DNA of 64,000 nt from Felis catus (Eukaryota): the NCBI RefSeq assembly GCF_018350175.1, contig NC_058374.1:132370001-132434000 (forward strand). Direction: 5' to 3'. Position 1 is the first letter of the stretch; each line of letters opens with the position of its first letter. This document shows positions 21,656-58,191 of the stretch, one piece after another. The notes beneath the pieces were generated by a model. That model made no database searches and was not told where the DNA came from. It was given only the letters and a program-made list of their open reading frames with translations. The position numbers and the translations under genes were made by a program.

Positions 21656-24600
21656 CTGCTTACGGGGCAGAAAAAAAAGGGGGGCATGTGAGGTCACTCG
21701 CAGGGAGGAAGGAAAGAGACACGGGGCTCAGAGGTGCCTACCACCCACCCCTGGTGATTGACCCCAGGTGAGCCTCAGCGTCTCCATATGCAAAGTGATG
21801 GTGAGCTGACCTCAAGAACATGTCAGTCTATGGTGGTGTCGGGGGGCCGGCAGTGGAGAGCTCTGAAAGCTCCCCTGGGTGGGTCTGATGTTGCCATCGG
21901 GGCTGAGAGCCACTGCTGAGCCCTTCTTAACTGAAAGACTGGACACTGATGGGTCTTTAAAGGAATGGATAGTCTTCACTCATTCACTTGGCCAGCTTCT
22001 CTAAGACGGTGAGAGGCTCTGCGTGGGCACTGGGCAGATAGATGCAGGGGCACAAACCAGGGGCTTCTGGAAAAGAGCTGCAATGGTGCGCCCATTCCAG
22101 AGTAGCATGTGGTTCAAGTCACAGGCTCTGGAGTCGGACAACCCGGGGCCCAAATCCAGCTCAAGAACCAATCTGCTGTGTGACCCTAGGCAAATGCCTC
22201 CACCTCTCTGAGCCCCTGTTTCCTCACAAGCAACAGGGGACAAGCATATCTATTTAGAAGGGTTGGGGGATGATTGGGCAGTTAACGCCAATGAACAGAG
22301 CCTGGTTATTGCAATTACTGTCTAGGGCAGAGTGTTCTAAGCTGGTCTCTGACACCCGCATCCTGCCTGGGGTGAGGACGAAGTGTTTAGAGTCCCCCTT
22401 TTCCTGTCTTAAGACCCCAGGGGGCAGGAGAATTGGGACAGGAGCCAGCAGTGGGGGGGGGGGGCTCTCCTCCCCCTCTCCTGCTGGAGGAAGCCCCTTC
22501 TGGGATGGAAGAAGGCAGGCAAGGCCACACGTCCAGACTCTGGGAGGGGGTAGTCTCTGGCAGGCACCGGGAGCATCAGCAGAAAATTAATAATTCAGCG
22601 AGCTTCTAGGAGCCAAATTAGACCTTCTCTGTCCCCTTGGCTTCCTCCACATCCCCAGAGGCCCAGGCAGTTCCCGCTCAGTCAGCCCCGGGCCTTGTCC
22701 GCAGGCTTAGCCCCAGACCCGAGCTCACTGAGTTCTCACGAATCTGTAAGTGAGCGAGTAAATGGTGAGCGCCTACCGCGGGCAGGGCACGGGGTGCTGG
22801 AGGGACAGCTGAGGGTCAAATGGACAACCAAGGTGCCCTGTGCCTCGCAGGGACGGCCCCTCGGCTTGGGGCAAGCACCCCTCCCTGGCCCCCACTGGCC
22901 CAGCCCACTTGCTGGGTGAGACTGGGTGGATCCCTTCGCCTCTCTGAGCCTTGTTGTCTGGCCATGTGATGAGGGGGTAAACGTGTCCCCCGCCTCAAAA
23001 CGCTGGGGGTGGGGGAGGGCGGTGTCTGAGAGAAGCTGCCAGGACCTTACGCTGAGGAGCTGGGGGAGGGGGACTGACGCATGGTTCTGTCACTCCGCCT
23101 TGCGAATGGGAGCAGGTGGGCTAACTTCTCTGGGCTCATTTCCCCTCATTTATAAAATAAGGAGTTGGAATGCCCAGCTTGCAGAGCTGTGGTCAGGATT
23201 AAATGGCGGTGGGCAGGAGAAGGGCCCAGACCAAGCCACCTTCGTCCCCCACCACGTCCCACATAAGAGGGCACAGCCATCCATCCGTCCGTCCTCTGTG
23301 TAGTCGCTTGCTTGGCCGGCCGGGCTGGGCTGCAGGCTGAGGGAGGTGGGCGGGCGAGGGATGAGCAGCTCCAGCGCACCTGACCCCACCCGTTACACGA
23401 ACCTCCCATGTCCTATCTGGAGGGCTCCTGCTGACTCCCTGGGTGCCTACGAATCCTGACTCTGGGTGACTAAAAACAAAGCCTCAGTTTCCCCTTCTGT
23501 AAAATGGGGACAACCAGCCCCAGGACAGATGTAACGATGGCAGAGAGCAGTAACAGGCCCTCGTGGACTATGAGAGCAGAACGCAAACTGTGAGCCTTGG
23601 CTATATCGGCCAACGAAGAGCTCACTACCTCCAGAAGCTTCCCTGGACCAATGCCGGGGGGGGAGGGAGGGGGCTCTGGCTGGGTGTTCTGGGCTCCGGC
23701 ACCCTCTATCCTCAGTTTCCCTCTTTCGACAGTGCCAAGCTTGGCACGAAGGGCACACATCTGAGTGAGACCGCGTGCCAGGCCCATCCTTGGCGCTGCA
23801 CGCGTATTTACTCCTCAGTCCTCACAGCCGCCCTTTTTGGTTGGTACTCTTACTGCCCCCATTTCACCGATGGGGGAACTGAGGCAGAGGTCCTTCTGAA
23901 TTTTCTACAGCAGCGGGGCCGGGCAAAGCCGATACCTCTGGCGCTCTCTAGCAAAGCGTCCTCCTCCCGCGGAGGGAGAAGGGGCCGGGCAGGAAGGAAC
24001 AGGACGTCTAGTGCTATTTACACAGACGCTGCGGTGAGCGGGCGTGCAAGCTGTTCTTTTGTCGGAGCCACCAGCTCTGCCGCCCGGCAGGAAGGCCAGG
24101 GAGGAGGTGGGCTCTCCAGATCGTGTGCGGCCCCCTCCCCACCCCAGTGTCTGAATCAGAAGAACACGACTCCCCCCCACTTTCCCCATCTGCTGCGGGC
24201 TCAGGCTGTGCCGCGTGGGCTCCCGGCTGATGCCAATCGGGCCCCTGGCCCAGGGTGGGGGGGAGGGATGATGATGCCATCACCCCCCACTCAGGTCCCG
24301 AAGAGGCAGGGAAAGGGGGGCTCCGAGCCCACAGGCTGTTGCGCTGGGAGTCTGCGTGGGGTTCGGTGTAAGCGCACAGGCCCTGAGCCAGCGCCGGGGT
24401 CCCGGTCCAGCTCAGCGCTAACGGGCTGGGCTCATTAGCGCTCGGCAGGGAGGAGGCGGGCAGAGGAGTTGTCCTCACCGCCGCCGTCACTGCTGTCACT
24501 ACCGCGTGCCAGGCCCCGCACCAGGGAAGCACCGCGCGAACACTTCACAGCCCTCTCGGCGATCTGGGGAGGTGAGGAGGCCCACTCTACAGATGGAGGA

Positions 24601-25690
24601 ACTGAGACAGTGAGGTGCAAGAACCCCAGCCCAGGCCCTTCTGATTCCAGAAGCTGTTCCCATTCTTCCCTCGCGGTGTGGGTCTCGGGCTGCCAAGTGG
24701 GCACGATGCCGGCCGCCCTGCCTGCCAGGGGGGCCAGCGGAAGTGGTTCTAGTGGCCACGAAAAGGCTGGGAGGGTCTGGAAGGCTATGTGAGACCGTGG
24801 CGGGGGGGGGGGGGCGGCAGCCTCACAGAGGGGGCCCGGATGGGAGGGACCTGCCCAGGCCGGGTGGCTCTGAGGCTGGGAGGATGCAGGGAAGACCCCA
24901 GCCGCCTTGTCCCCACGTGGGGTCTGTTCCTTTCCTGTGGGGGGCAGAGGGAGGGTGCTGGACCTCAGTGCACAGCTCACCCTCCACCCCCCCGCCCCCC
25001 GGACCACGCAGGGCCCGGCTCCAGGGGCCCCCGGGCGGGTGGAAAAGAACCAGCTTCACTCACCTCCCCACCTGACCACCCCCAAGCCTCGTGCGACTCT
25101 GCTGGGCTCAGCTCGGTTCCACCAGCCCGGTGACCTTATGTACAGCTGCTGTGCCTCAGTTTTCCCAGCTGAAAGGGGACAGCCATAATACCTCCTAGCA
25201 TATTAGTGATAATTGAGTTACATAATGCCCTTAGGGTAGAGCTGGCCTACGAAGGGCTCTGCAAGTGTGGATGATATTATTATAATTACTACTTGATTAT
25301 CGCTTGAAGGGACCCACCCTGCTCCAACCCCGACCATAAATCTGTTTGTTTAACCATTACAGCGAGAGAAGAAGCAAGTCTCAGAACACAGCTACACACC
25401 GTTTATACAAAGTTGCAAAGATTCCAAACCGGATCATGGATTTGTAAAAGCAGGAAGAAACACAGGGGGCGAGAAGGATACAAGTTCGGGACAGAGGTGA
25501 CCCTCTCTCGGGGGTGGGCGGTCTGGGGCTGGGAGTTGGGAGGCTCTCCCGGGCGCGAGCTGGCTGTAAATGTTTTGGTCCTTCTTGAGCCTGGATCCCT
25601 GCCTGGTCGGTGTTCTTCACACCTGCGTGTAGGTCTCAGATACTCTGCATTGATTTTCTTTCAAACAAAAACAAAAACGAAGGCAGGAAA

Positions 25691-25890
25691 GGGGCGCCTG
25701 GGTGGCTCGGTCGGTTAAATGCCCAACTCTTGGTTTCGGTTCAGGTCATGATCTCACAGTTCGTGGGTCTGAGCCCCACGTCGGGCTCCACGCTGATGGT
25801 GTGGGGCCTACTTGGGATTCTCTCTCTCCCTCTCTCTCTCTGCACCTCCCCTGCTCGCTCGCTCACTCTCTCAAGATAAAAAAAAACAAA
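25691..25890 (+). mobile_element. CAN-SINE in NPTXR intron 1
   Basis: ggggcgcctgggtggctcgg..., then (CT)n and an A tail. Confidence 0.9.
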
Positions 25891-26564
25891 ACAGGCCAAA
25901 GTCCAAAAGCAGTCTTTGAGCGTAGAATCTAACCCTGAATCTTAATGGTAGCCTTGCTTGGCTCCTCTGTCCCTCTCTAGTCCGGGCCACCGTCACCTCG
26001 GCTCCTACGCCGGCCCTTCTCCACACCGCAGCCGGGGGCAGCCGCCTAACTGCAAATCCAACCATGTTGCCGAAAATCCTTCAACAGCTCCCTTCCCCCA
26101 CTGATAAAGTCCCAGCCTCTCTGCGCTCAGCCCTCACTCCCCACCCCTGCAGGCTACACTTCATTCCCACCTAAAGTCACCAACGGCCCCCAGCTCCTTT
26201 CTCACCCCAGGGCCTCCGTACATTCTGTTCCTTCTGCTAAGAACACACTTCCTGTTCCCACCCTACCTCCCCCCGCCAAAGCCTGCTCACCCTCCAGATG
26301 GCAGCTTTCCCCACACCTGATCTAAGATGCTCCAAAGGGAGAAGAAAGAGGGCTTCTGTGGAGAGACCGAGGGTCTCGATTCACTCAGTCCCTCCCTCAC
26401 TCATTCGTCCACCCATCCACATACGCTGTGGCGACTCGACGTCACGAGCACAGGCACGACTCACATCAGACGGGCCAGCGTCGTTCCCAGGCTCCCCGCT
26501 TACTAGATCTGTGGCCCTGGACAAGCTGCTCAACTCCTTTCCTCAACTCTAAAATGGAGATAAT

Positions 26565-26787
26565 GGGGCGCCTGGGTGGCTCCGTTGGTTAAGCGTCCAG
26601 CTTCGGCTCAGGTCATGATCTCGCGGTTCGTGAGTTCAACCCCCGCACCGGGCTCTGTGCTGACAGCTTGGAGCCTGGAGCCCGCTTCGGGTTCTGTGTC
26701 TCCCCCTCTCTCTGCCCCTCCCCCGCTCACGTTCTGTCTTCCCTCTCTCAAAAATAAACTTTAAAAAAAATGAAAAAAATAAAATAA
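26565..26787 (+). mobile_element. CAN-SINE in NPTXR intron 1, inserted into a MIR
   Basis: Full-length copy; TSD-like aaaatggagataat / aaaacgggataat. Confidence 0.9.
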
Positions 26788-27899
26788 AACGGGATAATAA
26801 TAGTCTCTACCTTCTGGAATATAAGTAACGACAAAATGAAAGAACGTACGTGAAGACTGGCACACGATGAGTGACTGATAAATGGTTATAACCATTATTA
26901 TTATTTGCGGCTACTGAGGGGCAGCAGAGCACAGTGAGTAGTGACTGTGTGGGGCGGGTGGGGAGGGGGGGCTGGAGCCGGCTGTCGAGAGGGAAATCCC
27001 CACTGCGTGACCTGGGCAAGGTCAACCCCTCTGAGCCTCCGTGTCCTCACCTGTGAAATGGGAGCAGTTAAAAGTCCCATGGTGCTTATGGGGACTCAGT
27101 TGGAAGGCCCCTAGAAAAGGCTGGCACAGAGGGTGCCCTATGCCCTGCTGCCTCTTCCTGAGTGACAGGTGCAATGGGTCCAGAGGTGGACGAGGCCTGC
27201 ACCGGGCATGGGCCGTGCTCCCAGCTGGGGCGGGGGGGGGGGGGGGGAGGTAGACTAGGGGGCGTGACAGCACGAGAGCCCTCATGGAGGCACGGGCTCT
27301 GCGGGGCGGCAGGGGTCAAGGTGAGTCAGGGCAGGCCTCTCCCAGCAGGCCCTGTGTCTCCAACGTACCCAGAGGCGAAGGGGCAGGAAAGCAGGCCATA
27401 GAGGCCGGATTGGTCTTCGGTCCTGGGCTCTGAGGCCTCGGAGTTAAGTGATAGGTCACCCCCAACCCCAGGCTCCCTTGCCTCTCCCTTCAAGTGCTCC
27501 CTGTCCACGGCTGCATTGCCACAGAATTCCCTCTTGGGCCCTGCTTGTCCACATACTTCTGGGCCCGGGGCCAAACATCTACTGCAAAGACTGGGGATCC
27601 CCCTCCCCCCCTCCCAGCCCATTTTAATAGAAAATCCTGGCTGTGAGCTCAGCTCAGCTTCTGCCGTGCTGTGTGGCCTTCAGTCACTCGGGCTCTCTGG
27701 GCCTCAGCTTCCCCTGGAGTCAAATGAGGGGCATGTGGGGGCACATAAGTGTTTCCACCCCGGGCTGGCTGTCTCAGCCCCTGCCGCTAGAGTTCTATGG
27801 GGGGGACCGTGCGCCCGAGATTGTCCTCGGGGAACCCCACCACACCGTCACCTGGTGAGGAGCGCCAGCCCCTGCCTGACCTTTTTCCGCCTCCCATAG

Positions 27900-28610
27900 G
27901 CAAGGACTCCACCAAATGGCCAATAAACAGAAGAAAAGGTGCTCAACATCGTGAGTCATCAGAGATACACAAATTAAAACCACAGTAAGTTCACTGCACG
28001 CCCACCAGAATGGGGAGGGTTTTAAAAATAACCACACCAAGGCTGGCAAGCTTCACACACAGGTGGGCATGTAAACGCTTACTGCCACTTCGGCAAAGTG
28101 TTTGGCATCACCTCCTAAACGCTACGTAAATGTCTCTCCCGGGACCCAGACACCCACTCCTGGGGATGTATCCAGGAGAAATGAGGGCTTATCACCACCA
28201 AAAGATGTCACAAGAATGTTCATGGCAGCCTTATTTGTAACACCCGGATGTCCATCCACAGGGGAAGGGGTAAGTAAATGTAGGCGTGTCTATGCACCCA
28301 AACACTACACGGCATGAAAAAAAATCACAAGCCACTGTCACCCGCCCCACGATCAAATGTCAGCCATCACGTACAACAGAAACACCAGACATAAAGGGAT
28401 GCGGCAGTCTGGGGAAGTAGGGACTCCAGGGGTCCCAGAGGAGCCTTCAGGGACACTGGAAATGTCCCGCTCTCGATCTGAGCGGCGCTCTCGTCCACAC
28501 GTAAGTGTGCACTGAGCTGCACATTTAAGATTTGTGTGTTTTGTAAGTGAGAGACGTGAGCTCTTACGTATCTCGAATAGAAGATATACTTCAAAAGAAA
28601 AAAAAAAAAT
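27900..28610 (+). mobile_element. Old L1 (L1M) 3' fragment
   Basis: aaatggccaataaacag..aaaaggtgctcaacatc...aaattaaaaccacag are L1 ORF2-end motifs. Confidence 0.7.
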
Positions 28611-29611
28611 CCCCCAGGTTAGGTGCTGCCTTCTGTTCACGTAGCGCCTGCCGAGCTTGCAACAGCAGGAAGGGCCTCCCCCCCTGGGGCAAGGCCTGCC
28701 AGGGACGGGAGGCCACCAGGGCACCGTCCGGCGGGGCAAGCTGGCTCCTCGGAGCGCCGTGCGCGCCCCTGACATCTGACAGGTGGAGAATCTGAGGATC
28801 AGAGAGAAGAAGGAATTTTCTAAGGTCACAGCAAACAGGTGGCAGAACCGGGGTTTTTAACACCCGGTGTCTTGCTAGACGAAGGCGTGGCACAGGCAGG
28901 AGTAGGGGTTAAGGGCTGTGCAGTGGGAGTGTACCACCTAGAGATGGGGGGGGGGGCAGCCACAGGGAGAGGCGCCATCTGGGGCTGCAGGTGGGCACCG
29001 AGGATCCATATCGTCAAACAGAAGGCCAACGGGCAGAACCCCTCTTGCTGTAGCGCGCCAGCCCCCCTCACGGCCAAAAGAGGTAGGGTCAGGGAAGCAG
29101 CCCTCACAGAGCAGAAGCCGCCAGAATGGGCAGCAATGTAAAAAAAAAAAAAAAAAAAAAAAAAGCAACAGACTTTAGAAAAGGCACCGATAGATTCCCT
29201 AAGGCGCTGTGTTTCTCTGCAGATTTCCCTCCGAAACTGGAGGCCTGGGAGTGGGTGGGTGGGGGCTCGGTGAGGGCCTCGCACACACATGTAACCGCCC
29301 TCAACTCTCCCCCCCCCTCCCCGCCACCGCCAATCCCTAAGCAGGAGGCATCCGCCCAAGAACTCCCAACGGAGAGCCCAAAGGGCCGGGCCCAGATCCA
29401 GCCTCCCCCCCCCCCTTCCACCCACTTTACAGATTAGAAAACTGAAAAAAAAACAGAGAGGGAAGTAAAGAGCTTAGAGTCACAAGCAAAAAGAACTCCA
29501 CTTTATGCCACCAGCCGCGCTACCTCGGAGAACATTTCGAGCTGAAAGGTGTTTCGCGAACATCTGGCCCCGCTGTATCATTTCACGGAGCGGAAGCGGA
29601 AGCCGGCGCGT

Positions 29612-29680
29612 GGGGGAGGGGTGGGGGTGGGGGAGGGGTGGGGTGGGGGAGGGGAGGGGTGGGGGCGGGGGTGGGGCGGG
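29612..29680 (+). repeat. G-tract array (13 tracts of G3-G5 with 1-nt loops); predicted G-quadruplex
   Basis: Counted directly. Confidence 0.85.
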
Positions 29681-30369
29681 TTGTCGGGTTCTGGTTCTTC
29701 CACGTCCTTATCTGTAACAGGGGAGCGTGTACAGCCCGTTTCACAGGGCCCAAGACTGAATGAGCCAATCAGTGTTACTTAATACTGTTATTTATTATTA
29801 GCAAAACTTCCACGTGAGCCTTCTGCCGGTCCTGCCGGCCGGCAGGACAAGCCTTTGGGGACCGGCCCTCATCCCTCTGGCTCTGGGGGCTCTGACACAG
29901 AAACGGTCCGGGGCACCGTCTAGCAAGAGGCCCTGCCCCCCCCACCGGCCTTTCCCACTCTTCCTGAAGGTAGGTGAGGTCTGACCTCTCCAGATGGATC
30001 TAGAGAAAATGATGCCCACTAAGGGCTCTGGAACCAGACACTGACAGGCTCCCTTGCTGTGCGCGACCTTGGGCCAACTGCTTAACCACTCTGAACGTTG
30101 GTTTCCTCATCCGTACAAGGGGGATGAAATGGTTACCTCCCTTATGGAGATTTGATGAGGATTAAATGAGATAATGCCCAGTGCCCGACACACAGTAGGC
30201 GCTCAGCAAGCATGAGCTATAATTGTTATCGAGGCCAGGGTCCCCTGTGACCATTGTCAGGGTGTTCCTTACCCCCATCTTTCCACCCCAAGATGGAGGC
30301 AGGCGACCAGCTTGCTAGGCCGGGTTAAGGATGTGGTTTAGTCAAACAAAGAACTGCTGACGGAATCAA

Positions 30370-30960
30370 TCTGAAAGCTTCATTTGCCACATACATTAAA
30401 TTAATGCAAAAAAAAAAAAAAAAAAGGAACCCTGGAACATGTATGCGTGGCTGCTTGCCATGTAAATGGTTCAACCCTTTTGGAAAGTGGTTCTTGGCCA
30501 CAGCCATAAAAAATCAATATCCTCTGACCCAGTAATACCTCTCCTGGGAATTCAGCCTAAAGAAATAATTCAACAGACTTCAAAAGAAAAAAAAAAAACC
30601 TATCTGCATGAAATTGATCCTGTAATGAGCATCTAGAAGAAAAATAATTAGGGACAACCTACATCTCCAGCAAAGGAGAAGAGATGGTCAGAGCAGTGAT
30701 GGATGGTGGAGCCAGAGATAGATCCCAGCATATCATGGCCACCATTAAAACGGTAATTACTGGCAACCGGTAATTCTGGAACAATGTCTACATCTGGATA
30801 AAGGACCAGAAGGGGATGAAAAAATGGATGAAATGGTGGAATTAAATGCGATTTTTTCCCCCCAAGACACATTTTGACTTTTTTTCCATTAACAGCCACG
30901 ACCATAACAACAAAAACAAAAACACAGGCAAGAAGAGAAATAATTTCTCCTAGGCTCACA
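30370..30960 (+). mobile_element. Old L1 (L1ME-like) fragment
   Basis: ccttttggaaag...tgacccagtaatacctctcctgggaatt...aacctacatctccagcaaaggag motifs. Confidence 0.6.
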
Positions 30961-30989
30961 AACAGGGTTCTCACTTGAGGCCTCGAGGA

Positions 30990-32110
30990 GAGGCTGGGCC
31001 AGTGTGACCTTCCCTCCCCTTTGGTAGAGGGCTGGTGGGGTGAGGGGGGGTGGTGATACAGAGACGGGCCAGGTGGGGACGGGCAGGGATGCGCAGAGGG
31101 CTGCGGGAGCAGGAATGGGGGTAGGAAAAGGTCAGTGTGCGATCAGGGAGGGCCTCTGGGAGGAGGTGTCCTCAGAGCAGACCCTTGGCTGATGAGTATG
31201 GCTACTCTGGGGGTAATCTGGGCAGAGGCAAGGAGGAAATGGGAGATGGGCCAGCTCTGTAATGAGAGCCTGGGAGCAGGCTGAGGGGTTTGCACCATGA
31301 GGAAGCCCCATGATGGGCTTAAGGACGATCCTTGGGGCTTAAGGAAGACGGATGGAGGGGTGGGTGTGCCTGGAGTGGGAGACGACTGAGGAGGCTGCTG
31401 CAAGAGAGGTGAGGTCGACTGGAAGGAGGGCAGGGCGGGAACTAACCATGGCTTATCAGAGCACACCTGAAAAGCGGGTCGGCGGAGGACCTGAGTCCAG
31501 GTTGGGGCACCATGAGGGCAGGGGGCCAGTGTGACGTCCAGAGGGAGGTGCTCAGGAAGCGGTTGGATCTACCGGTCTGGAGCTCCGGAAAGAAACCTGG
31601 GCGGGACGAAGCTGGCTGGGGCGCCACAGCGGACTGGGCGTTGGGAGCCTCCGCGTGTGGCTGAGTTCACCCAGGGAAAGTGAGAAGAGAGCCAGGAGGG
31701 GTGCGACCGATAAAGGAGGAGGGCCCCGAAACGGGACACAGAAGCAGAGAGGGAGGAAGAGCAGGTAAGAGGTGTCTAGAAGCCAAGGGCCCGGAGATCT
31801 TTAGGAGGGAATGATCACTGGGGTCAGATGTTGCAGAGGCGTTCATCAAGGTAAGGACAGAATCGTTCCCATTCAATTGATCGTCTTGGGTGACGGCCCC
31901 AGAGCACGTTCAGCGAGCTGTAAGGGGAGAGAGGTGAGTGGCGAGAACACAGACCCTGAGAATCCGGGGGCAAGCTTTTGAGGATATCGGATGAAGAGAG
32001 GGGAGGAAGAAGACAGTAGCTAAAGAGAGCACACGGTTCCGCTGAGCTCAGGAGTCTGACCCCACAACTGTCAGGGTCCAGACCCCAGTCTCTCCCAAAG
32101 ACCCCAGGGA
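30990..32110 (-). mobile_element. L2 remnant
   Basis: Purine-rich antisense L2 motifs (ggaatgatcactggggtcagatgttgcagagg). Confidence 0.55.
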
Positions 32111-34107: not shown

Positions 34108-34722
34108 CTCGATGCGGTCCAGGCGGTCCCGGAGGGCTCGCACGGCGTCCTCCAGCTCGAGGATGAGGGCCGGCGAGTCCCAGGGCCCGTCGGCCATGGC
34201 GTCGCGGNNNNNNNNNNNNNNNNNNNNNNNNNNNNNNNNNNNNNNNNNNNNNNNNNNNNNNNNNNNNNNNNNNNNNNNNNNNNNNNNNNNNNNNNNNNNN
34301 NNNNNNNNNNNNNNNNNNNNNNNNNNNNNNNNNNNNNNNNNNNNNNNNNNNNNNNGCAGCAGCAGCTCCTCGCGCTCGCCGGCCGCCGCGTCGCCCTGCT
34401 CGGTCCCCGACGGGNNNNNNNNNNNNNNNNNNNNNNNNNNNNNNNNNNNNNNNNNNNNNNNNNNNNNNNNNNNNNNNNNNNNNNNNNNNNNNNNNNNNNN
34501 NNNNNNNNNNNNNNNNNNNNNNNNNNNNNNNNNNNNNNNNNNNNNNNNNNNNNNNNNNNNNNNNNNNNNNNNNNNNNNNNNNNNNNNNNNNNNNNNNNNN
34601 NNNNNNNNNNNNNNNNNNNNNNNNNNNNNNNNNNNNNNNNNNNNNNNNNNNNNNNNNNNNNNNNNNNNNNNNNNNNNNNNNNNNNNNNNNNNNNNNNNNN
34701 NNNNNNNNNNNNNNNNNNNNNN
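34108..34722 (-). CDS. NPTXR: NPTXR exon 1 (coding part); upper boundary is an estimate because the start lies in an N gap
   Basis: Visible segments translate in one frame: 34356-34414 gives PSGTEQGDAAAGEREELLL and 34108-34207 gives RDAMADGPWDSPALILELEDAVRALRDRLDRIE. Donor is GAG|GTGAGC at 34107. Both match recalled mammalian NPTXR. The start (CUG in human and rodent) and signal anchor fall in N gap 34415-34819. Confidence 0.9.
34208..34355. other. Assembly gap (148 N) inside NPTXR exon 1
   Basis: N run; reading frame preserved across it. Confidence 0.99.
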
Positions 34723-34819
34723 NNNNNNNNNNNNNNNNNNNNNNNNNNNNNNNNNNNNNNNNNNNNNNNNNNNNNNNNNNNNNNNNNNNNNNNNNNNNNN
34801 NNNNNNNNNNNNNNNNNNN
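34415..34819. other. Assembly gap (405 N) covering the NPTXR start codon and signal anchor
   Basis: N run. Confidence 0.99.
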
Positions 34820-34829
34820 CGCGCGGGGC

Positions 34830-34883
34830 CGAGCGGGAGCCGGAGCGGGAGCCGGAGCGGGAGCCGGAGCCGGAGCCGGAGCT
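34830..34883 (-). repeat. Hexamer repeat (GGAGCC/GGAGCG) x about 9 in the NPTXR 5'UTR
   Basis: Read directly: gagcg ggagcc ggagcg ggagcc ggagcg ggagcc ggagcc ggagcc ggagct. Confidence 0.9.

Positions 34884-35613: not shown

Positions 35614-35614
<1 letters not shown>

Positions 35615-35652
<38 letters not shown>
35615..35652. repeat. (AC)19 microsatellite about 0.7 kb upstream of NPTXR
   Basis: Read directly. Confidence 0.97.
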
Positions 35653-35655
<3 letters not shown>

Positions 35656-37979: not shown

Positions 37980-38020
<41 letters not shown>

Positions 38021-38640: not shown

Positions 38641-38789
38641 ACCCCAGTGCAGATCTGCCAAAGTCTTGGTCAACCCACCAGGGAGCTCCAGGGTCAAGAC
38701 TGCCCCATTTGGGAGGTTTTGCATTGTGCAGAAATTCCCAGGCCCTAACACTCTTTTCATGCCCAGCCATTAGTTGGGAGTTGCCCCAC

Positions 38790-44419: not shown

Positions 44420-45110
44420 AGCCTTGGGCTTTCAGTTCTCTTTTGGCTATTGATTTGTAATTTAACGGTAACGTGGGCTGTGGTGACAATTTCTTGAAAT
44501 TCACTGGGAGTGGCTTTCTCTCGTTACCACGCGACGTACACGGCCATGTCTGGAAATCTTCGGTGTGTGCTTGAAAATGAAAATGATGTGTTCGATGTAG
44601 GAGTCTGTACGGGCCGTTTGTCATTCTGCTGTGTGTCTTTGTGGCTCGCTTCTCTGTAGGTCTTGTAATTTTGGGGGGCAAGCTCCTGTTAACAAGGGTT
44701 TTATCCGTGAGCCTCCCATGTGGCCTTTACTGTGGGAATGTCCCCCCCCCCCCCCCCCCCCCAGCAGCCTTGTGTCTGCTATTCGACCTCTCTGTGGGTA
44801 TAACCACGTTGGCTTTGTGTGCTAATTACCAGACTTGGGAGTTCTGGGAGCGTGTGGATAACACAAATCCAAATCTCAAATGTGCGTTAGGGAAGTTCTG
44901 GAGTTACAATTTCTCGGGGGAAGACTTCAGTTTCATTTTTTCCAACGGAGCCAGAAACAACTTCTCCGACAACTTTTTTTGTTTTGTTTTGTTTTGCGGA
45001 AGGGTGATTTTTCTCCTCCATTTGCCTTTTCATTGAGGATATGCCTTATTTGGGTGTCTTTGTTTGAAATTTCTTCTGGCAAAGGCTCAAGGCCTTGTCT
45101 CCCCGTCCCT
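44420..45110 (-). mobile_element. Ancient L1 ORF2 (endonuclease region) remnant
   Basis: Reverse complement ttttcaagcacacaccgaagatttccagacatggcc...aaattacaaatcaatagc aligns by eye to the recalled L1 ORF2 consensus. Confidence 0.55.
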
Positions 45111-47530: not shown

Positions 47531-47668
47531 TTTTTGAGATTTTTTTTTAAAGTAGGCTTCATGCCCAGAACGGAGCCCAATATGGGGCTTGACCTCATGT
47601 TCCTGAGATCAAGACCCGAGCTGAGATCAAGATCGGATACTTAACCAACCAAGTGGCCCAGGCACCCC
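47531..47668 (-). mobile_element. Short older CAN-SINE downstream of the CBX6 poly(A) site
   Basis: ttttaaagtaggcttcatgcccag...ggggcttgacctcatg...ccaggcacccc. Confidence 0.85.
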
Positions 47669-47684
47669 TGGCCTGATGCTTTTA

Positions 47685-47931
47685 TTTATTTTTTTAAAGT
47701 GTATTCATTTATTATTTCTGAGAGAGAGAGAGAGAGAGAGGGAGAGAGCACACAGGAGGAGAAGGGACAGAGAAAGAAAGAGGGACGGAGGGAGGCAGAC
47801 AGACACAGAATCCAAGGCAGGCTCCAGGCTCTGAGCACAGGGCCTGACTCGGGCTCGAACTCCCAAACCGCGAGATCGTGTGACCTGAGCAGAAGTCAGA
47901 TGCTCAACCGACTGAGCCACCCAGGTGCTCC
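47685..47931 (-). mobile_element. CAN-SINE immediately downstream of the CBX6 poly(A) site
   Basis: Perfect TSD GGCCTGATGCTTTTA at 47670-47684 and 47933-47947. Confidence 0.92.
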
Positions 47932-48009
47932 AGGCCTGATGCTTTTAAAGGCCACAGTCACAGCCTGTTAGAAATGAGACAGACACACGCCCACTGTAGG
48001 GGCCGGACC

Positions 48010-49069
48010 TTTGCTTCGGAATGTGACAATTTATTTGGGGGGCAAAAGAGGCTTTTCACTCCCCCTTCCTGGCATTGATACAACATTGAAAAGCAGCAGA
48101 ACGAAACGTACAAGACGAGAGTAATCGGCACAGACCCCCCTCCCCCCGGCCCAGAAACAACCGAATCCAGAACAGAACCGAAACCCACACCCAAAACGAG
48201 CCGTCTTCTCCACCCGCCACCTCGGGGAGGGGGCAGGTGGACTGGGGGCCCCACCCCCGCGTGGGGGTGGGGGCTCCATTTCTGGTTCCCTCTCTTTCAC
48301 CACTGGAGGCAAAGTTTAGCCAGCTGGGAGCTGGATGGTTGAACCACAGACAAAGGCAACAACACTTCATTTTTAAAATGAGAGAGAAAAGAGACCGCGC
48401 CCCTCCCCAGATATAGAGCTATATATGTATATTTTTATATATATAGAATTCATTCGTGCACAGTTCATTCAATGAGCTTTTCAAAAACTAAAAAAAAAAA
48501 AAAAAAAAAAATCATACGATACGTTTCTTTAGGCCTTTGTGTTTTTAAATTAAAAGAAACGAAAAGTGCCCATCTGCACTCCACCCAACAGCCAGGGAAA
48601 GGCCCCAGAACCCGTTCTTTCTACCTTGACCTCTCGCAAGGGGTTCCCCCCGTGACACCATCAGCCTCCCTTTACCTAACTGAAGCTCTGCATACAGTTG
48701 GCGCTCACTCGCCGCTCGGAGTGGGGTACCGACTCCTTCAAGGTGGGGCAGGGAGACCCCGCAGGCCTGGGAGCTGGGGTCCTCTGTCCCCGCTCGGCCC
48801 GTCACCCTAGTTCGGCATGTTGGTGACTGTCAGCCAGACGGAGGCAGGCGAGGGAGACAGGCTCCTGGTTTTAGCCCCAACCTCCTTTCTGAATCTGAGA
48901 GGAGATGCAGACAGAAAAAAAACAGAAACCTTTAAACACTTTCCTTGTCTTTTTCAAAGTGATTCCTTAAACCATACAAGCCCCCAAGAGGCTGCCTTGG
49001 GCTAGTGCATGGGAGCCGGAAAGTGGAACTGACCATGTGGGGCTCCACCGTCTGGCGTGGGCCAAGTGC

Positions 49070-49100
<31 letters not shown>

Positions 49101-52100
49101 CACCCCCCCCCCCGAAACCAACAACAACAACAACAACAAAACAAAGCCCCCAAAACCCACCCCAACCCAAAAAACCAACAAAACCCAGAAAGGTGAGAAA
49201 AGGTGGTATGTCCACTCGGGTCCCCGCGGAGGCTGAAGAGGCTGGTGATGACCCAACCGCTCTGACCTCACTGCTTCCTCCTTGGGGCGGACCTCTTGCC
49301 CAGACCGCCCGGCAGCGGGGAGCCGGCCAGCTCTCTAGCAGCTTCGGCACCCAGGCCCCCACCTTTGGGAGGGGCTTTTCCCAAAATACCAGGGCAGCTG
49401 GGCGCTTCACCCCGCGAAGCAGCTTTGCCTCGTGGGGCCCTAGTTTCCAGGTCTCTTAAGTGGGGCGCTCTCCGCCCACCTCACACTGACGTCGGGCCTT
49501 GATCAGCCCTTCTCATTTTGCCCCGGGCCCCTGCAGGGGGCAGGAATGAAAGGGGGCTGTGGGAAGCTAGAGGCCCCGGCGCCAGCAACCTCGACCGCCA
49601 CCGGATCCTCAGCAGCTGCCTGGACACCAGCGGTGCTTTACGAAGAGGCCTTGCCGCCCAATACACCCATTTCACAGAAGGGCACGCTCAGGGTCGGAGA
49701 GGGAAATGAAGACGGAGGTGTCCCAATTTCCCATCTCAAACCAGAGACACGGGACCTCACCTGTTTCCTATGACACGTGGGCGGGGAGGAGGAGGTGGCG
49801 TTAAGGGGAGAATGACCGATGCCCCAACCGCTACTGAACGTGGGAAGAGATCGGGCTTTGAGGGATATTTCACATATAAAAATAAAGCGAACCAGAATGC
49901 GACTTCTGCTTGGTAGTTAGGTAAACGGAAAAGCAGCAAGGGGAGAGGGAGGGCCCGGAGAAGGCTGATTCGTGCAAGAGTGTGTGTGTGTGTGTGTGGG
50001 GGGGGTTATGGGTTTCCCGCTCAGAGCCACCCTCGGAGAGGTAGGAGGGCTCCGCTTGCTCTGGACCCTGTGCCCACCTAGACCCCCCCCAGGGGAGGTG
50101 CCCACCTCGAAGCAGCGTGCGCGTGTGCCTCTGCGTGTGCGGAGGTGGGGTGGGGCCACGCGGCGGGGGGGCAGGGGCAGGCATTCCCTTCCCCCCATGG
50201 TCCCCCCCAGTCCCTCTGGATCACCGCCTAAGATTCTCCCGGAGTCTACAGCTCCTTCTTCCTGAAGCCTGCAACCCCCACCCGGCCAGGCAAACTCAGG
50301 GGCGTCACGGTCTTTGGGGTGATGGGGAGGGAGGGACCAGAGGACGGGACACGCTGGCAACCAAACGGAAGAGAGCAAGGAACCCAACTGTATCCACTCA
50401 CCAGCCTTCCTGGAGAAAGTCACCGATGACACAACAGTGGGGCTCCCGCTGACCCCCACCCTCCCCAAACGTGGGCTCCAAGCCCCGGGCCCCTGCAGTT
50501 CTGGCTAGTTCCCTTGGGGACAGCTGTCTTCCTTCCCTTTGAAGGAGGGTAGGTGTGGAGTGTGGGCCCAGGACAGGAGGGAGGCCTCCCCACCTCGGGC
50601 CAAGGAGAGAGAGCAGGGACCCCAGGGACCGGCAGCCGGGTCTGGGTTTCCGTCCCCGGTTCCTAACATTGCCACCTCGCCTGTGCAATCATTGCTTCAC
50701 TAGTTTTTCTTTAAATATCTCTTTCTCTCCCCCCCACTCCCGCCCCAGCCCCATAGGAATCCCACGATATTTTTTTCTATTTCTTTTTTTTTTTCCTCTT
50801 TTTTTGTTTTTTGTTTTTCTGCAAAACTAACTCTTTCACTTTCCTGTCATAAAATCACCTCTGAAAACACAACTTCTTTACAAAAAAAAGTCACGAATGA
50901 CACGGACTCTCAGGAAAACACATTTCTATGGTCTCTGGAAACACCTGTAACTGGCACCCAGGTGGTCGTTCACCTGGGGTGAGGGGTCGGGTGGGGGGGG
51001 GGGAGTCCCCTCCGAGGACAGAGGAGAGATACCAGCCCTTCTTTGGGGAGGGGGGAAGCCAATTGGCACTTGGACGGCCACAGAGCCGACACAAAGGGCA
51101 GGGTGGGGAGGGGTCTAGGAGTGCCAGCCCCCCAAACCCTGTGAGGGCCCTTGTTCTACATCCTGGGGCGGGGAGGGACGGGGGCCACGCCACAGCCCCC
51201 CGCAGGGAGATTCGGAAGAACGAGTCCTCCTGTACTTCGGGCAAAGGCATTTGCTACCTAACAGGATTCCCTTTCTGCCTCCTTCGACCACCTTTTGCCA
51301 TCACGCTTCTGGGCTGACACACCCCTGGCCGCACACACCACGAAGCTCCCCTGGGCGACGCACAGGGACAGGCCATTCAGGCCAGACTGACAGCTGGGGC
51401 CGGCCGGCAGGGTGGCCTCCCGCAGGGCACGGGAGCCCTGGTCTCGCCCCCCCTCCCCCTCCCAAAGAACACAGGCCCCCTCTTTGGTCGCCCCCTTTGG
51501 CCTGCCTGCCCTCCCAGTGCCCGGCCTAAAGCTGGGGTGGGTCTCTGCCATTGGCATGGACGGCCACTGGCATGGCCCGGAGCTACCCACAGCTTCGAGC
51601 AGGCTGTGCTGGGAGGAGGAAGCCTCAGCAGTCGGCCGCAAGAGAGAGGGAGGGGGCGGGCGAAGCCGGAGGCCCCCCACCCCCACCCCCAGAATGGTGT
51701 CCAGGCTTCCTCTCCCCCTCCTCTGCCCCTCCCCCCCACCCCAGGGACGGGGGAAGAAGGGGATGGCCCGGGCGGGGGTCTCCCCCTTCCACCTCAGCCC
51801 CCACCATGCCGTGTCTGCAGCAGAGGCCCGGCTGGTTGCGCCCACCACCCCGAGGAGGAGGGCTTGGGGGCACACACACCAGCACTGGGGGGCTGAGGGG
51901 ATCAGCCTGTGGCCCCACAGCAAACTCCTCGGGCCCGAGCCAGGTCTGGGCAAGGAAAGGTCCAGGCCTTCGACGACCCTATTCCGTGGAACCCTCAAGG
52001 GGGCCGCCTGAAAGCCCGGGCCCAGCGCACATATGCGTAGGCGCACAGACACGCCAAGGGGCGGCAGATGAGTGCGCCAGCTGGAAGTTTCTACAGCAGG

Positions 52101-52852
52101 TTCTTGTAGCACCTTTGGTGGAGAACTGAAGGGGCCTTTAAAGATGCTAGGAGGCTGTGGCAAGGGGAGGTCCCTGCCAGTCCCTCCCACCTTTGAGATG
52201 GGGATTGGGAAAGAGACTGGGTGGGGTGGAGCCTAAGGGGACCTGCTTGGGTCTTGGCCAAAAGCGGGCAGGAAGACCCAGGCCTCCGGTCCAGCTCCTG
52301 CTGCATTCGTTGATATGGAGGGAGGGGCCGAAGCTGGCCTCACCTCAACCTCTGTCTGGGCTTTGCCATCCCTGCCCCTCCTGCCCAGGCATCTGGGGGA
52401 AGGAAAGAGGCAGTGCCCATACGGGGAAGGGGTCTCCTAAGGGGCCCCGCAGCTGCCGGGTTAGCACCGAGAAATCAGATGCTGTGTGCGCGAGCTGGAA
52501 GCAAGCCGGGGGAGAGAGAGCGGGATGTGGAGGAGGCAGCCAACTCTGGGTTCCGGGGCTCCCCAGGAGCCCCCCAGCGGGCCCCACCATGCATGGGCTG
52601 GGAGGGTGCCAAGAGACAAGGAGGAGGACTTCTGAGTGCCCTGGCCCCACCCCGGCCCAAATCCGTTCCGGGACGGCCGCTCCCCCAGGCTTCGGGGGGG
52701 TTCCAACCGCCCAGCCCCCTCCCGGGGTCAACACCGAGCCATCTGAAACAAGCAAAGCACGGGCAGAGGTGTCTGAGGGCAGGGGTGGGGGCAAGAGCAG
52801 GGCTCTGGGCAGGAGGGCCCCCCCAGCCCCCCCCCACCTCGGTGGAGCCCCT
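48010..52852 (-). other. CBX6: CBX6 3'UTR (about 4.8 kb)
   Basis: Repeat-poor GC-rich sequence running from the stop codon to the AATAAA at 48030-48035. Confidence 0.7.
48030..48035 (-). terminator. CBX6: CBX6 distal polyadenylation signal AATAAA
   Basis: TTTATT on the plus strand, with a GU-rich element (GTGGGCGTGTGTCTGTCTC) about 35-55 nt downstream on the minus strand. Confidence 0.75.
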
Positions 52853-53854
52853 TCACTTGCTCACCCCGCTGCCGCCACCACCCCCAGTGGCACCTGCTAN
52901 NNNNNNNNNNNNNNNNNNNNNNNNNNNNNNNNNNNNNNNNNNNNNNNNNNNNNNNNNNNNNNNNNNNNNNNNNNNNNNNNNNNNNNNNNNNNNNNNNNNN
53001 NNNNNNNNNNNNNNNNNNNNNNNNNNNNNNNNNNNNNNNGAGGAGGCGCCGGCAGGCTCAGGGGCCACGGGAGGCGCCTGGCCCGTGGCAGCCGTGACGT
53101 CGGGAGGCACCCTCTTGCTGGTGGCCGCCACCTCGGGAGGGATGGACAGGTCGAGCACCTCAGGCTCACGCCAGTCGGGAGCAGATGGGCTCATGGTCTC
53201 AGGGAGCAGCTTGGGGGGCGCGTCATCGGGGTCGGAGGAGGACTGCGGTGCCGGGGAGGGGCAGCCGGAGGAGCTGGAGCTGCGGGCGTCATAGGGGGCG
53301 GCGGGGGCCGCCAGCAGCAGCCCGGGGCCCGGGGAGGCGGCAGGGTCGGCCTTGCCCGCTGGCGGGGGAGGCGGAGGGCCGGGCGGGGGCTTATTGTACA
53401 GCGCGAAGGTGCCGAACTTCATGTGGCGGATCTGGGTGCGCAGGATGCTCTCGCTGAACTTCTTGCTTTTGCCGATGACGCGGTTCCTGGAGGGGACTTT
53501 GGGGCGAGCGAGGGCTCCTGCCCCCTGCCCGGTGCCCGCTCCACCCGTGCCCTTGTCGATCACCTTCAGGTTCAGGATGATGCGGTTTCGCTTGGGCTCC
53601 CGAGGCTTCACCTTGCGATTGATGATGCGCACCGTCTCAGAGAAAGGGGAGATGGGTGGGCGCAGGCCAGGGCTGCCTCCCTGGGGGTCCGGGCGGGGCA
53701 GCGGGCGGCGGGACATGCGGTGGCAGCGGCGGATGTCCTTCTTGAGCCGGTGCACGGCCGCGCTGGAGTGCAGCTTGGGCGAGGAGGCGCTGGCACTTGG
53801 CTTGACAGAGAAATGCACGTCACTGATGCGGAGGGCCTCAGCCTGGGCTCGCGC
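52853..53854 (-). CDS. CBX6: CBX6 exon 5 coding part (1002 nt including TGA; Pc box hidden in N gap 52900-53039)
   Basis: [57 protein letters not shown]...[12 protein letters not shown]...GGGGSGVSK*. Acceptor is cacAG|GCG. The frame is preserved across the gap. Predicted total is about 415 aa. Confidence 0.97.
52900..53039. other. Assembly gap (140 N) covering the CBX6 Pc box
   Basis: N run; frame preserved. Confidence 0.99.
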
Positions 53855-55646
53855 CTGTGGGGCAGAGGGAAGGGCTGAGCGGGGGCTCGGCTTCCTGCTG
53901 ACCTCCTCCGGGTGCTCCTGCGCCAGCCACCCACGAGTACGGTCCCGTTACGCTACCCTGCGAGCCCTTCAGAGAATCAGCTGTGCTCCCGACCCCGGCT
54001 TAGAGATAAAAGGAAGCCCATTCGGACAGGTGAAGCAAAGTGCACGAGGCCTGAAAGCAGGTCTCACCCCCGTCGGGGCCCGCCACGGCTTGGCGGTGGG
54101 GCCCTGGGACAGATAGGGTGGGGGCTGCCCTTGCTGACACAGAGGAGTGTCCTCGATCAGGACACGACCCAGAAAGCACACCCTTTGCTCAGAAGCCCCG
54201 GACCAACTCTGCTCGGTGAAGGATCCCAGCCTAGCCTGGCACCCCTCCACAGACCGATACTCGGGGACAGAAAGAAGGGGGAGGCTCCTCCCTGCTTCAC
54301 TCCACACCCCAACGCCACTGACCTACTCGCAGGGTCCCAAATGCTCTGTGCCCTGTCTCTGAACGGGCTACACTTCCAGATTGGATTTGCCTCCCCAGCT
54401 GATCACCCCTGGGACAGATCCTTAGCTCTCAGCCCCTCCTGTATGCTCGCATATGCCCTCCTGTATGCTGCCCTTCCCTTCCCGGGTCTGACTCATGTCT
54501 GCCCAGGATCTGGCTCAAGGCCTGGGTCTGAGCAAATCAGTGCCAGTGAATTCCAAAGCCGGCACCCAAAGCCTCGGTTGGAACCCACCCCAGCGAGACA
54601 TGGGTTTGGTGGGGATGAACCAAGAGGTGGGAACAGCTCCGAATCCGTGCCAAGGTGGCCTGAGGGCTGGATGGCTGAGTGAGCCTGTGGGGCCAGTGAA
54701 AAATGTCCCCCGCTCTCAGGCTCAGCTGCACTCCCAGGTGTGAGGCGTGTAAGGCCCCAGGGCTCTGTAGGAGCTCACTTCACTGAAGATGTGGGGTGTG
54801 GCAGGGCCCCCAGAGTCCTCAAGTTCAGGGCAAGGGACTCACAAGGCCATCAAGACCGTCCTCCATGGCCAATCCTTCCTTCACTAACAAAACACTAGTC
54901 ACAAGCCAGCTGCTTGGAGCTGGAACTATAACCGGAGCCTCTCCCCTAGGGGCTGCCCTCCATGGAGAGGACAGGTCACAGGCAGTTATGACACTGGGTG
55001 ACCGACTCAATGTAAGAAAGGACGTACGGGGCCTAGAGGAGCAGAGATCAGGCGCACGGGCCCGTCTTGGAGGATGAAGCCTAAGCAGGAGGGAGCCGTG
55101 GTCCCTTCTGAGCCTGACACGCCCCAGGCTGCTGCAGAGGTCCCGTGGCCTGCCGCACGGACGCCACTAAGACAAACAGTGGGAGCAGAGAGCCCAGCAG
55201 TGGGAGGATGTAGCGGGCAAGGGACTGAAAGCAATGGCTGGAGAGAGCGGAGGCGATGACAGAACTGTCACCTACAGATACCTTGGCTCCCGGTGGGGGA
55301 GACGCGCTAGGCTGTCTCCTCCAACCTGGGTGGGCCGAGAGGGAGAACACATTCCCACGGTCGGCCCGTGAGCTCCGCAAGAGTGAGACCTGTAGTTTGG
55401 GGTCTCTCTACATCCCACCCCACAGCACTAGACACTTAGCCAGTCCCTGCGAGGTGGCCTGTGTGCCCCTCAGGCAAAACTACATCGTATTTGACCACAA
55501 CCGCCCAGAAGCGGGGTTTGCGGACTTCTTCACTGCATTAGCGAGGATCGTCTTTAGAAGGTGGTGGAAACATGCTTCAACGCCACATGGCCCTCCTGGC
55601 CACGCTGGGGGGGGTCTCCTGAGGGCTGCTTGGCCAATGGTCCCTC

Positions 55647-55665
55647 CGGGCACTAGGTGGCAGCA
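55647..55665 (+). promoter_or_regulatory. Candidate CTCF site in CBX6 intron 4
   Basis: CGGGCACTAGGTGGCAGCA matches the CTCF core CCAC(C/T)AG(A/G)(G/T)GGC(A/G) with one departure (G at the first core C). Confidence 0.5.
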
Positions 55666-58191
55666 CACACGGCCTAGTCTGCCCGGGACCAGGGTGGCCA
55701 GCTCCTCCCGTGCACCAGCCAGTGGAACCAGGGACTGGTCTCATCCTATCCCTTCTCAGACAAAGGCAGGAGAAAGCTAGCCTTTTTCCTCGGCCTGGCA
55801 AGCAGGGTCTTTTGCAAGTTCATCCCCAAGGGAGCTCGGGGGAATCTCCACTCTTTCTGTCCCCGCCCTGGGCGGGGGGGGGGGGGGGGGGAGGGGTCAG
55901 CACCCTGGGGGGGGGGGTCAGCATTTATGCCATCCGCATGCTGCCTGAGCTCCCAGACCTCTGTCATCGTGGCTCTGCCCAAATCCAGTGGCGAGGGTCC
56001 CCGCGGAGCGGGGTTTCCAAACTTTTTATGGGAAACGTTTCTTACTTTGCAACTTCTCAACATATATATGTATCTTTTGTTTGGAAGGGGACCGGTTTAC
56101 CCTTTCCCCCTCCTCTCCCCTCCGCCAGGTGGCTGAGAATTCACTGAAGGTGGGACCTGGGTCTGGCCCGTGAATGAAAAATGGTACCCACGGCCAACGT
56201 GTTTACTCCGCTCTGGCCGGTGACAGGCACGGCTCTGAGGGGTCGGCAGGTACTACAGACAGCACAGAAGGTTCGAGACCTGGACTCTACCGCCGACTCT
56301 TGGTGACCGTGGGCAAGTTACACAACCGCCATGGCCTCAGTTTTCCTATGTATAAAATGGGGACAACGACAACCTACCTCACGGGCTCCCGTCTCCTTCA
56401 GAACGGTTCCGGAGCAGAAAGTAAGCGCTGAGAATACTTTGTCTCCCAGATACACCGCCTGTCAGGGACTCACAGAGCCCCGGGCCCGGACCAAACTGAT
56501 CTCCACCACCCCTTGCAAATATCTACAGTCACTGTCGTAAAGGTCCAGGTCAAGGTCCCGCCATCTGCCTCTCCACCCCCTGCCCCACCAACTCTGCGAC
56601 CATCATGGTTTCCTGTGTGTGTCCACCGTGTCCCCTTAACCTGACGTGTGCTCTCTGAGGGACGGGGGTGAAGGAAAGGAGCAGGAATGGAGGCCAGGAA
56701 GCCGGGTGATGGCATCTCACGTAAGCCTCCTCCCCCTCTGGGCCTTGATTTTGCTCATGTGCGTAATGGGAATGGTACTCCTTCATAGGGTTGTTGAGAG
56801 GATTAAAGGAGATAATCCACGAGGGGCCTCAGCACTGTGTTAGGCTCAGAGCCAGCTCAGGAGCTACGGCTACCAAAGGAAAAAAAAAAGGCATTTTGTG
56901 AATCCAAGCTCACGGTCATTACTCACTTCACCGCTAGAGGGTGCTCCAGCTGCGCTCACAGCCTGTCACACAGCCCACCCGCCCTCCAGCTGCTCCGCCC
57001 CATCCCTCCTCCTAAGAAACATCAAGGGTTAAGTGTGCTCCTCCATGGATCCCGGAGCGTGTGCAGGTTGGGAACAGGAATCGTGGAAACAGGTGGAAAG
57101 CTAAGGAGTCTTTCGTGTCTGCTTTAAGTCCAAACCCTTGTACACGCACAGACCTTTTGGTCTGGGCTTCTTGAGCCCCACCCCACCCTCACGGGGCCTT
57201 TTGGGCAAATGGGAGATTCCGAGGTTCTGCATTCGGCAGAGTCTCTCTTCTCTGCAGAGCGCTCCCTGCCCTTAGCCAATCGCCACAAAGTCACAGGCTG
57301 TCAGGGTAGGCTGGGGCCCCAGGCAACTTCAGCACTACTGGGTCAACTGTGGTTTCCCAGGGAGGCCTGCCTGCAGTCTCGCCTGCGTCCTAGGGTCATC
57401 TCACCTTCCCTTTCCGACTCTGTTCTGAGAAAAATAAAATACCACCCCCCACCCCAAACTGAACCCTAAGATGGCTTCCTTCCTAGGTCTCCCTCCCCTG
57501 CTGAGGCTAATGTGCTATGCTTTCACTCCCCCCACCCCATCTTCATTACAATGTCCAGAAACGGCCAGCGGTGGGGGTAAGCCAGTGGCTCAGCCCGTAA
57601 AAAACTCAAAGCGAAGTGATCTAAGGTCAAATTCAAGCTGCAGTCCCCAGTGAGGAGGGGAGACATGCAGAACCAATCCTGACAGTGAAAGAAGCTGGGG
57701 GCAGGGAGGCAGGTGGCCCCCAAATGCCTCTTCTGTTCCCAGCCCTAAAGGAAGCCACATTTACTCTCCCCCGCTGGGTTTGAATTCCAGGCAGAGCCTT
57801 AGCAGGGCTGGGGGCGATGAAGGTTCCCTTCATCTAGCGTGTGGAAGTAACCTCCCTGCCACCCCCTCAGGTGGACAGCCCCCACCTGCCTCATCCACCC
57901 CCCCCCCCCCAATGCGGGAGCCCTGCTGGCCAGCCCAGACTCTGTTTTCTCAGCGAGGATTATCCTCCCCCCTCACTTCCCACTCCCAGGCCCCTCTGGC
58001 TGAAGCTGGAGCTGCCCAGGGCCGGCTGCCAGGGGCTCTTCGGGGGCTCACAACCACCCCCTGCCCAGCTGGGGCCCCTCTGGAAAGGTCCGCCTGCCTG
58101 GGCAGCCGCGGATCTGTCCCTCCCTTGCAGGCCCCGTGCTGCGCCAGGGCTAGGGGCCCGAGAGGGGGCTGCTGGGGCTGGGCCAGGTTAC

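What the first reader, a model, noticed from the sequence alone, without database searches (positions are those of the whole stretch)
21656..58191. In-frame CBX6 exon 4 to NPTXR exon 2 read-through route (chromodomain-pentraxin chimera, Npcd-like)
Seen: CBX6 exon 4 ends in phase 0 (...TFLLK AAG|GT, 58192) and NPTXR exon 2 starts in phase 0 (CAG, 21655), on the same strand. One 36,536-nt splice that skips CBX6 exon 5 and NPTXR exon 1 gives a stop-free protein of about 374 aa: about 82 aa of chromodomain and AT-hook-like motif fused to 292 aa of coiled coil and pentraxin domain, with no signal anchor and no Pc box. Established: rodents express such Cbx6-Nptxr read-through transcripts (Npcd, neuronal pentraxin with chromo domain). 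Inference: the route is intact in this felid. It would place a normally extracellular synaptic lectin domain in the cytosol or nucleus, attached to a methyl-lysine reader that cannot join PRC1. I do not know of a description in carnivores.
Basis: partly seen in the sequence, partly recalled or inferred. Interest (0 to 1): 0.72.

Follow-up and report, generated by a model that had tools for sequence, protein, structure and literature searches.

The report
Cat counterpart of mouse Npcd read-through
Two neighbouring cat genes, CBX6 and NPTXR, can be spliced in frame at exactly the joints of the known mouse Npcd fusion transcripts; the cat likely makes it only as a rare by-product, no cat RNA was shown to carry it, and the frame match is an inherited feature of both gene families rather than a sign of function.

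Summary
CBX6 exon 4 ends in phase 0 at 58192. NPTXR exon 2 starts in phase 0 at 21655. The 36,536-nt splice gives an open frame of 59 visible + 292 aa (374 aa with exon 1, inferred). This is the junction of cloned mouse Npcd isoform 1 (TFLLK|QELPAR; 327/349 residues identical).

An intact route means little. Cat CBX4, CBX7 and CBX8 end the same exon in phase 0, and NPTX1 and NPTX2 have a phase-0 first intron. Penultimate-to-second-exon joining is the commonest read-through pattern.

Predicted carnivore models with these junctions already exist (polar bear, puma), probably projected from mouse. Cat RNA could not test it: 3 reads, one spliced into 21655 from an unseen donor.

Verdict: orthologue of a known read-through, expression in cat unshown. 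One lead remains: three shark annotations carry the isoform-2 junction as alternative isoforms, which would make it very old if reads support them.

The parts
58626..58669 (-). CBX6 exon 2 (chromodomain, cage W32/W35 region)
   Evidence: AG/GT ends, translation
58409..58474 (-). CBX6 exon 3 (chromodomain)
58192..58258 (-). CBX6 exon 4; basic KKRGPKPK motif; phase-0 donor = route 1 (mouse Npcd isoform 1)
53564..53854 (-). 5' part of CBX6 exon 5 (97 codons) up to an internal phase-0 donor AAG|GTGATC = route 2 (mouse Npcd isoform 2); 31,908-nt intron to 21655
   Evidence: mouse P0119/P0129
52853..53854 (-). CBX6 exon 5 coding part (333 codons plus stop; part under N)
48030..48035 (-). first AATAAA downstream of CBX6 exon 4; likely CBX6 poly(A) signal, which read-through must pass
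   Evidence: use as a poly(A) site inferred
34108..34200 (-). 3' end of NPTXR exon 1 in a CpG island; phase-0 donor GAG|GTGAGC; skipped in the read-through
21430..21658 (-). NPTXR exon 2 with tandem acceptors (21658/21655/21652); second coiled coil
   Evidence: one read fits splicing into 21655
18906..19153 (-). NPTXR exon 3 (pentraxin domain)
16184..16363 (-). NPTXR exon 4 (pentraxin domain)
15618..15842 (-). NPTXR exon 5 coding part and stop

Best explanation
This is the ordinary tandem CBX6-NPTXR locus, whose exon frames allow the same two joints as mouse Npcd isoforms 1 and 2, and the cat likely makes them only as rare read-through by-products. Inferred mechanism: some polymerases pass the CBX6 poly(A) signal (~48035) and run about 13 kb into NPTXR. 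NPTXR exon 1 has no acceptor, so the spliceosome joins the exon-4 donor (58192) or the internal exon-5 donor (53564) to exon 2 (21655). Shown: both joints are in frame, with the only stop in the last exon, so the RNA would escape nonsense-mediated decay. Shown: the phases are shared by paralogues. Inferred: the 374-aa or 471-aa protein lacks a signal sequence and Pc box. It would stay in the cytosol or nucleus without the pentraxin's disulfide and glycans, bind methyl-lysine poorly, and probably be cleared by ubiquitination, as reported second-hand for mouse NPCD.
For: Junction identical to the cloned mouse variants; 327/349 (route 1) and 424/446 (route 2) identical residues to mouse. Phase 0 at the same codon in cat CBX8, CBX4 and CBX7, 3 of 3, and in NPTX1 and NPTX2, 2 of 2. 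NPTX1 lies upstream of CBX4/CBX8 on the same strand, so no Cbx-to-Nptx read-through is possible there. The internal donor falls in the ILNLK-VIDK motif, kept in 10 of 10 CBX6-type proteins checked, so protein constraint can explain it. Prakash 2010 (passages): this splice pattern occurs in 42% of conjoined mRNAs, and 8 of 10 randomly chosen close tandem pairs gave one by RT-PCR. MisPred 2008 (section 7): such chimeric ESTs are 'very rare, or absent'. 15 of 16 felid NPTXR entries fetched lack the fusion. Review passage: KLHL2/cullin 3 ubiquitinates NPCD, and overexpression causes apoptosis.
Against: No cat junction read was seen, so even low-level expression is unshown. The Prakash test used genes under 10 kb apart; this gap is about 13 kb. 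Against 'mere by-product': mouse RefSeq curates two Npcd isoforms; NPCD is reported as a PTPRO substrate needed for NGF-induced outgrowth (second-hand); three shark RefSeq models carry the route-2 joint as alternative isoforms.
Confidence: 0.6

Rival explanations
1. The read-through is a regulated, selected isoform across vertebrates. It supplies an intracellular pentraxin (a PTPRO/KLHL2 partner) tied to a chromodomain, and the conserved Cbx6-Nptxr adjacency is kept for it.
For: Fused models from sharks, teleosts, a frog, birds, platypus, wombat and placentals: exact route-1 joint in 9, route-2 joint in 24, other fusions in 18 of the 391 proteins fetched (a hit list, not a random sample). The three shark models are named isoform X3/X5. 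Mouse functional reports, second-hand.
Against: Apart from the mouse cDNAs, all are predictions that can be projected from the mouse proteins. Several have junk N-termini without a chromodomain (puma, polar bear). Teleost joints are inconsistent. The newer polar-bear model is not fused. Phases are family-ancestral. CBX6 chromodomain Kd >500 uM.
Confidence: 0.2
2. The cat never makes it at a measurable level. Npcd is a rodent read-through, and non-rodent models are annotation projections that fill a missing GC-rich NPTXR exon 1.
For: Only 1 of 16 felid NPTXR entries is fused, and it is malformed. A canonical AATAAA ends CBX6. ESTs are very rare or absent.
Against: Read-through between close tandem genes is routine. 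Both donors score near real donors of the locus in a rough matrix (7.1 and 7.0, against 7.6-12.3). The RNA test here had no power.
Confidence: 0.2

Closest known systems
Mouse Npcd isoform 1 (Q6TLW1 '1.1 kb variant', NP_001013378.2, 372 aa)
   Same: Same joint TFLLK|QELPAR, same domains (Pfam Chromo + Pentaxin), 327/349 identical to the visible cat frame.
   Different: The mouse form is a cloned cDNA; the cat form is only a possible splice, 2 aa longer.
Mouse Npcd isoform 2 (Q6TLW0 '1.4 kb variant', NP_001013380.2, 469 aa)
   Same: The internal exon-5 donor is present and in frame in cat (53564); 424/446 identical.
Predicted carnivore models: Ursus maritimus A0A452UFQ8 (route 1), Puma concolor XP_025782337.1 (route 2)
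   Same: Same junction peptides.
   Different: Predictions with wrong N-termini and no Pfam chromodomain hit; transcript support unknown.
Conjoined (read-through) genes in general, Prakash et al. 2010, PMC2953495
   Same: Skipping of the upstream last exon and downstream first exon, canonical GT-AG.
   Different: Belongs to the 16% minority that keep both parents' frames.

Membership tests
Npcd (Cbx6-Nptxr read-through) | CBX6 upstream of NPTXR, same strand, no intervening gene | tested here: met
   Exon map; the intervening 13 kb was not searched exhaustively for genes
Npcd (Cbx6-Nptxr read-through) | In-frame exon 4 to exon 2 joint as in isoform 1 | tested here: met
Npcd (Cbx6-Nptxr read-through) | Internal exon-5 donor as in isoform 2 | tested here: met
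Npcd (Cbx6-Nptxr read-through) | Complete chromodomain including start codon and first cage residue | tested here: inconclusive
   Exons 2-4 match mouse; exon 1 is under N. A genome search reported a match to residues 1-33 upstream of exon 2.
Npcd (Cbx6-Nptxr read-through) | A transcript that carries the joint | tested here: inconclusive
   3 reads in 4 runs; donor of the one spliced read not shown
Npcd (Cbx6-Nptxr read-through) | Stable intracellular protein binding PTPRO/KLHL2 | not testable with these tools
   needs bench work
Membrane or secreted neuronal pentraxin (NPTXR) | N-terminal signal anchor or signal peptide from exon 1 | tested here: not met
   Exon 1 is skipped; the signal anchor is N-terminal
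Canonical PRC1 CBX subunit | C-terminal Pc box | tested here: not met
   Both donors lie upstream of the exon-5 C-terminus; Pc-box position and role recalled

The most novel reading that the evidence does not exclude
The Cbx6-Nptxr read-through, above all via the internal exon-5 donor, is a real splice kept from sharks to cats and mice (about 450 million years, recalled date). It would be one of the oldest vertebrate conjoined transcripts, giving a selected intracellular chromodomain-pentraxin protein.
Probability: 0.15. Interest if true: 0.65.

Novelty: already known. Interest (0 to 1): 0.2.

Why it matters
As a cat finding it adds little: the chimera was cloned in mouse in 2005, and an intact route follows from conserved exon phases. 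It would matter only if reads show the junction across vertebrates. That would settle the doubt raised in 2008 on whether chromo-pentraxin proteins are real or annotation errors. It would also run against the report that conjoined junctions are not conserved in lower vertebrates. Practical point: fused NPTXR models in draft genomes should be treated as suspect.

Tried and rejected
- Sequencing runs: no listed holder was on record as RNA; 'no RNA holder listed', no evidence either way.
- Read laying at the NPTXR exon-2 acceptor: 2, 1, 0 and 0 records in 4 runs (1-2% of each raw run read; tissue unknown), so no power.
- Search for short assembled fragments spanning the joint: 0 of the 48 newly fetched hits span it (52 hits, 68 candidates). 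Weak, because contigs drop rare splices and human-like records are filtered.
- AlphaFold on a 12-sequence alignment of route-2 proteins: pLDDT 46, pTM 0.38; unusable, no fold search made.
- Donor scores used a recalled approximate matrix. The internal donor ranks 3rd of 28 GT sites in the visible exon-5 coding part, so it is not exceptional.
- Template-switch artefact: rejected as the source of the mouse joints, since both ends are canonical GT/AG sites in cat.
- Primary NPCD papers (Chen and Bixby 2005, J Neurosci; Tseng and Bixby 2011) are not held; the J Comp Neurol paper was seen only as a citation.
- Supplements: PMC2953495 unreadable and may list this pair; PMC13429570, 0 hits in 4 files.
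- Earlier scan findings: none.

Full report
Observation. On the minus strand the window holds CBX6 (exons 2-4 at 58669-58626, 58474-58409, 58258-58192; exon 5 from 53854, stop at 52853) followed by NPTXR (exon 1 ends 34108; exon 2 to 21430; exons 3-5 at 19153-18906, 16363-16184, 15842-15618). All ends are GT/AG. CBX6 exons 2-4 total 177 nt and end in phase 0. NPTXR exon 2 has three tandem acceptors (21658, 21655, 21652), all in frame. The splice 58192 to 21655 removes 36,536 nt and reads open for 59 + 292 aa. CBX6 exon 1 is under N; orthologues give 23 residues, hence 374 aa by inference. A genome search matched residues 1-33 upstream of exon 2. Exon 2 is 100% identical to felid NPTXR entries, so the felid assignment holds.

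What it is. The joint TFLLK|QELPAR is that of the cloned mouse '1.1 kb variant' Q6TLW1 and of RefSeq Npcd isoform 1, with 327 of 349 residues identical. Mouse isoform 2 (469 aa) uses a donor inside CBX6 exon 5, after IILNLK. The cat has it at 53564 (AAG|GTGATC, phase 0, 31,908-nt intron; 424 of 446 identical). Pfam finds Chromo plus Pentaxin in both mouse forms.

Is the frame match meaningful? Mostly not. In the same genome CBX8, CBX4 and CBX7 end the homologous exon at the same codon in phase 0 (3 of 3; paralogue names from recalled motifs and position). NPTX1 and NPTX2 have a phase-0 first intron (2 of 2). NPTX1 lies about 450 kb upstream of CBX4/CBX8 on the same strand, where no such read-through can occur. 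The internal donor sits in ILNLK-VIDK, conserved in 10 of 10 CBX6-type proteins checked, so coding constraint can keep it. In a rough, recalled matrix it ranks 3rd of 28 GT sites in the visible exon-5 coding part. Prakash 2010 (PMC2953495, passages) found this skip pattern in 42% of conjoined mRNAs and products from 8 of 10 random tandem pairs under 10 kb apart. It also found no significant junction conservation in lower vertebrates.

Already in databases. Among 391 proteins fetched (hit lists, with large clusters only partly listed), 9 carry the exact route-1 joint, 24 the route-2 joint and 18 other fusions. Carnivore cases are polar bear A0A452UFQ8 (route 1) and puma XP_025782337.1 (route 2). 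Both have wrong N-termini and no chromodomain hit, which suggests projection from mouse onto drafts lacking the GC-rich NPTXR exon 1 (inference). 15 of 16 felid entries are not fused. MisPred 2008 (PMC2542381; section 7 parts 1-2 of 3, passages, supplement passages) flagged such models in human, mouse, rat and chicken and found chimeric ESTs very rare or absent. The one striking item: three shark RefSeq models, named isoform X3 or X5, join IILNLK to the pentraxin gene's exon 2. Whether reads or mouse proteins support them could not be seen.

RNA evidence. Laying four runs on the exon-2 acceptor gave 3 reads. One covers the exon up to 21657 and then runs on unlike the intron. Its donor was not shown. 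RefSeq-type models use both the Q and QQ acceptors (131 and 19 of 153 canonical joints). Expression of the chimera in cat remains untested.

How it likely works. Inferred: leaky termination at the CBX6 AATAAA (48035), transcription through about 13 kb, and pairing of a CBX6 donor with NPTXR exon 2 because exon 1 has no acceptor. The stop stays in the last exon. The protein would keep the chromodomain, the basic KKRGPKPK motif, the second coiled coil and the pentraxin domain. It keeps the sequons and cysteines that map to human N216, N463 and C322-C383, but would never enter the ER to use them. The signal anchor lies in exon 1 (bioRxiv 2024.02.16.580719, passages). The human CBX6 chromodomain binds H3K9me3 and H3K27me3 peptides with Kd >500 uM (PMC3013012, passages), so 'methyl-lysine reader' overstates it. 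Mouse NPCD is reported as a PTPRO substrate needed for NGF-induced outgrowth (PMC3676743, passages) and as a KLHL2/cullin-3 target that kills neurons when overexpressed (PMC3658946, passage). I saw these claims only second-hand; the primary papers were not held. An AlphaFold run was unusable.

Literature gap. Searches for Npcd/Cbx6/Nptxr, 'neuronal pentraxin with chromo', CBX6-NPTXR, KLHL2+NPCD and Npcd+readthrough listed no carnivore study by title or abstract start. The library lacks most subscription journals, and the supplements of PMC2953495 could not be read. PMC4619651 (passage) only lists the read-through name in a mouse protein group.

Verdict. It is the cat orthologue of a known mouse read-through, and the open frame is inherited from both gene families. 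Best reading: rare by-product, 0.6; selected conserved isoform, 0.2; not made in cat, 0.2. Interest 0.2. The shark isoforms are the lead worth checking.

Noticed in passing
window 53564 (minus strand): Internal phase-0 donor in CBX6 exon 5, the mouse Npcd isoform-2 route. Both it and the exon-4 donor end in the same exonic hexamer CTGAAG. A second AAG|GTG site 48 nt upstream (53612) is also phase 0.
   Followed up: yes
window 21652-21660: Triple tandem acceptor at NPTXR exon 2; database models use both Q and QQ forms, and cat NPTX1 exon 2 also has CAG CAG.
   Followed up: partly
P0165, P0166, P0204: Three shark RefSeq alternative isoforms carry the route-2 joint; read support unknown.
   Followed up: partly
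L014-L017 (own genome, contigs C37 and C16): NPTX1 lies about 450 kb from CBX4/CBX8, and CBX7 about 135 kb upstream of CBX6: a Cbx-Nptx paralogon with a different gene order.
   Followed up: partly
P0051, P0223: Ground-squirrel models join a CBX7-type exon 4 (KRLLLQ) to NPTXR; probably a projection error.
   Followed up: no
P0077: A vole model fuses NPTXR to a downstream dynein-light-chain (PF01221) segment; that segment had no match in this window.
   Followed up: partly
P0163, P0168, P0212, P0214: Bird models join nearly the whole CBX6, including the C-terminal box, to NPTXR exon 2.
   Followed up: no
window 48035-52853: CBX6 3' UTR of about 4.8 kb with several strong GT donor-like sites (49761, 50402, 52344) that could give non-coding read-through forms.
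   Followed up: no
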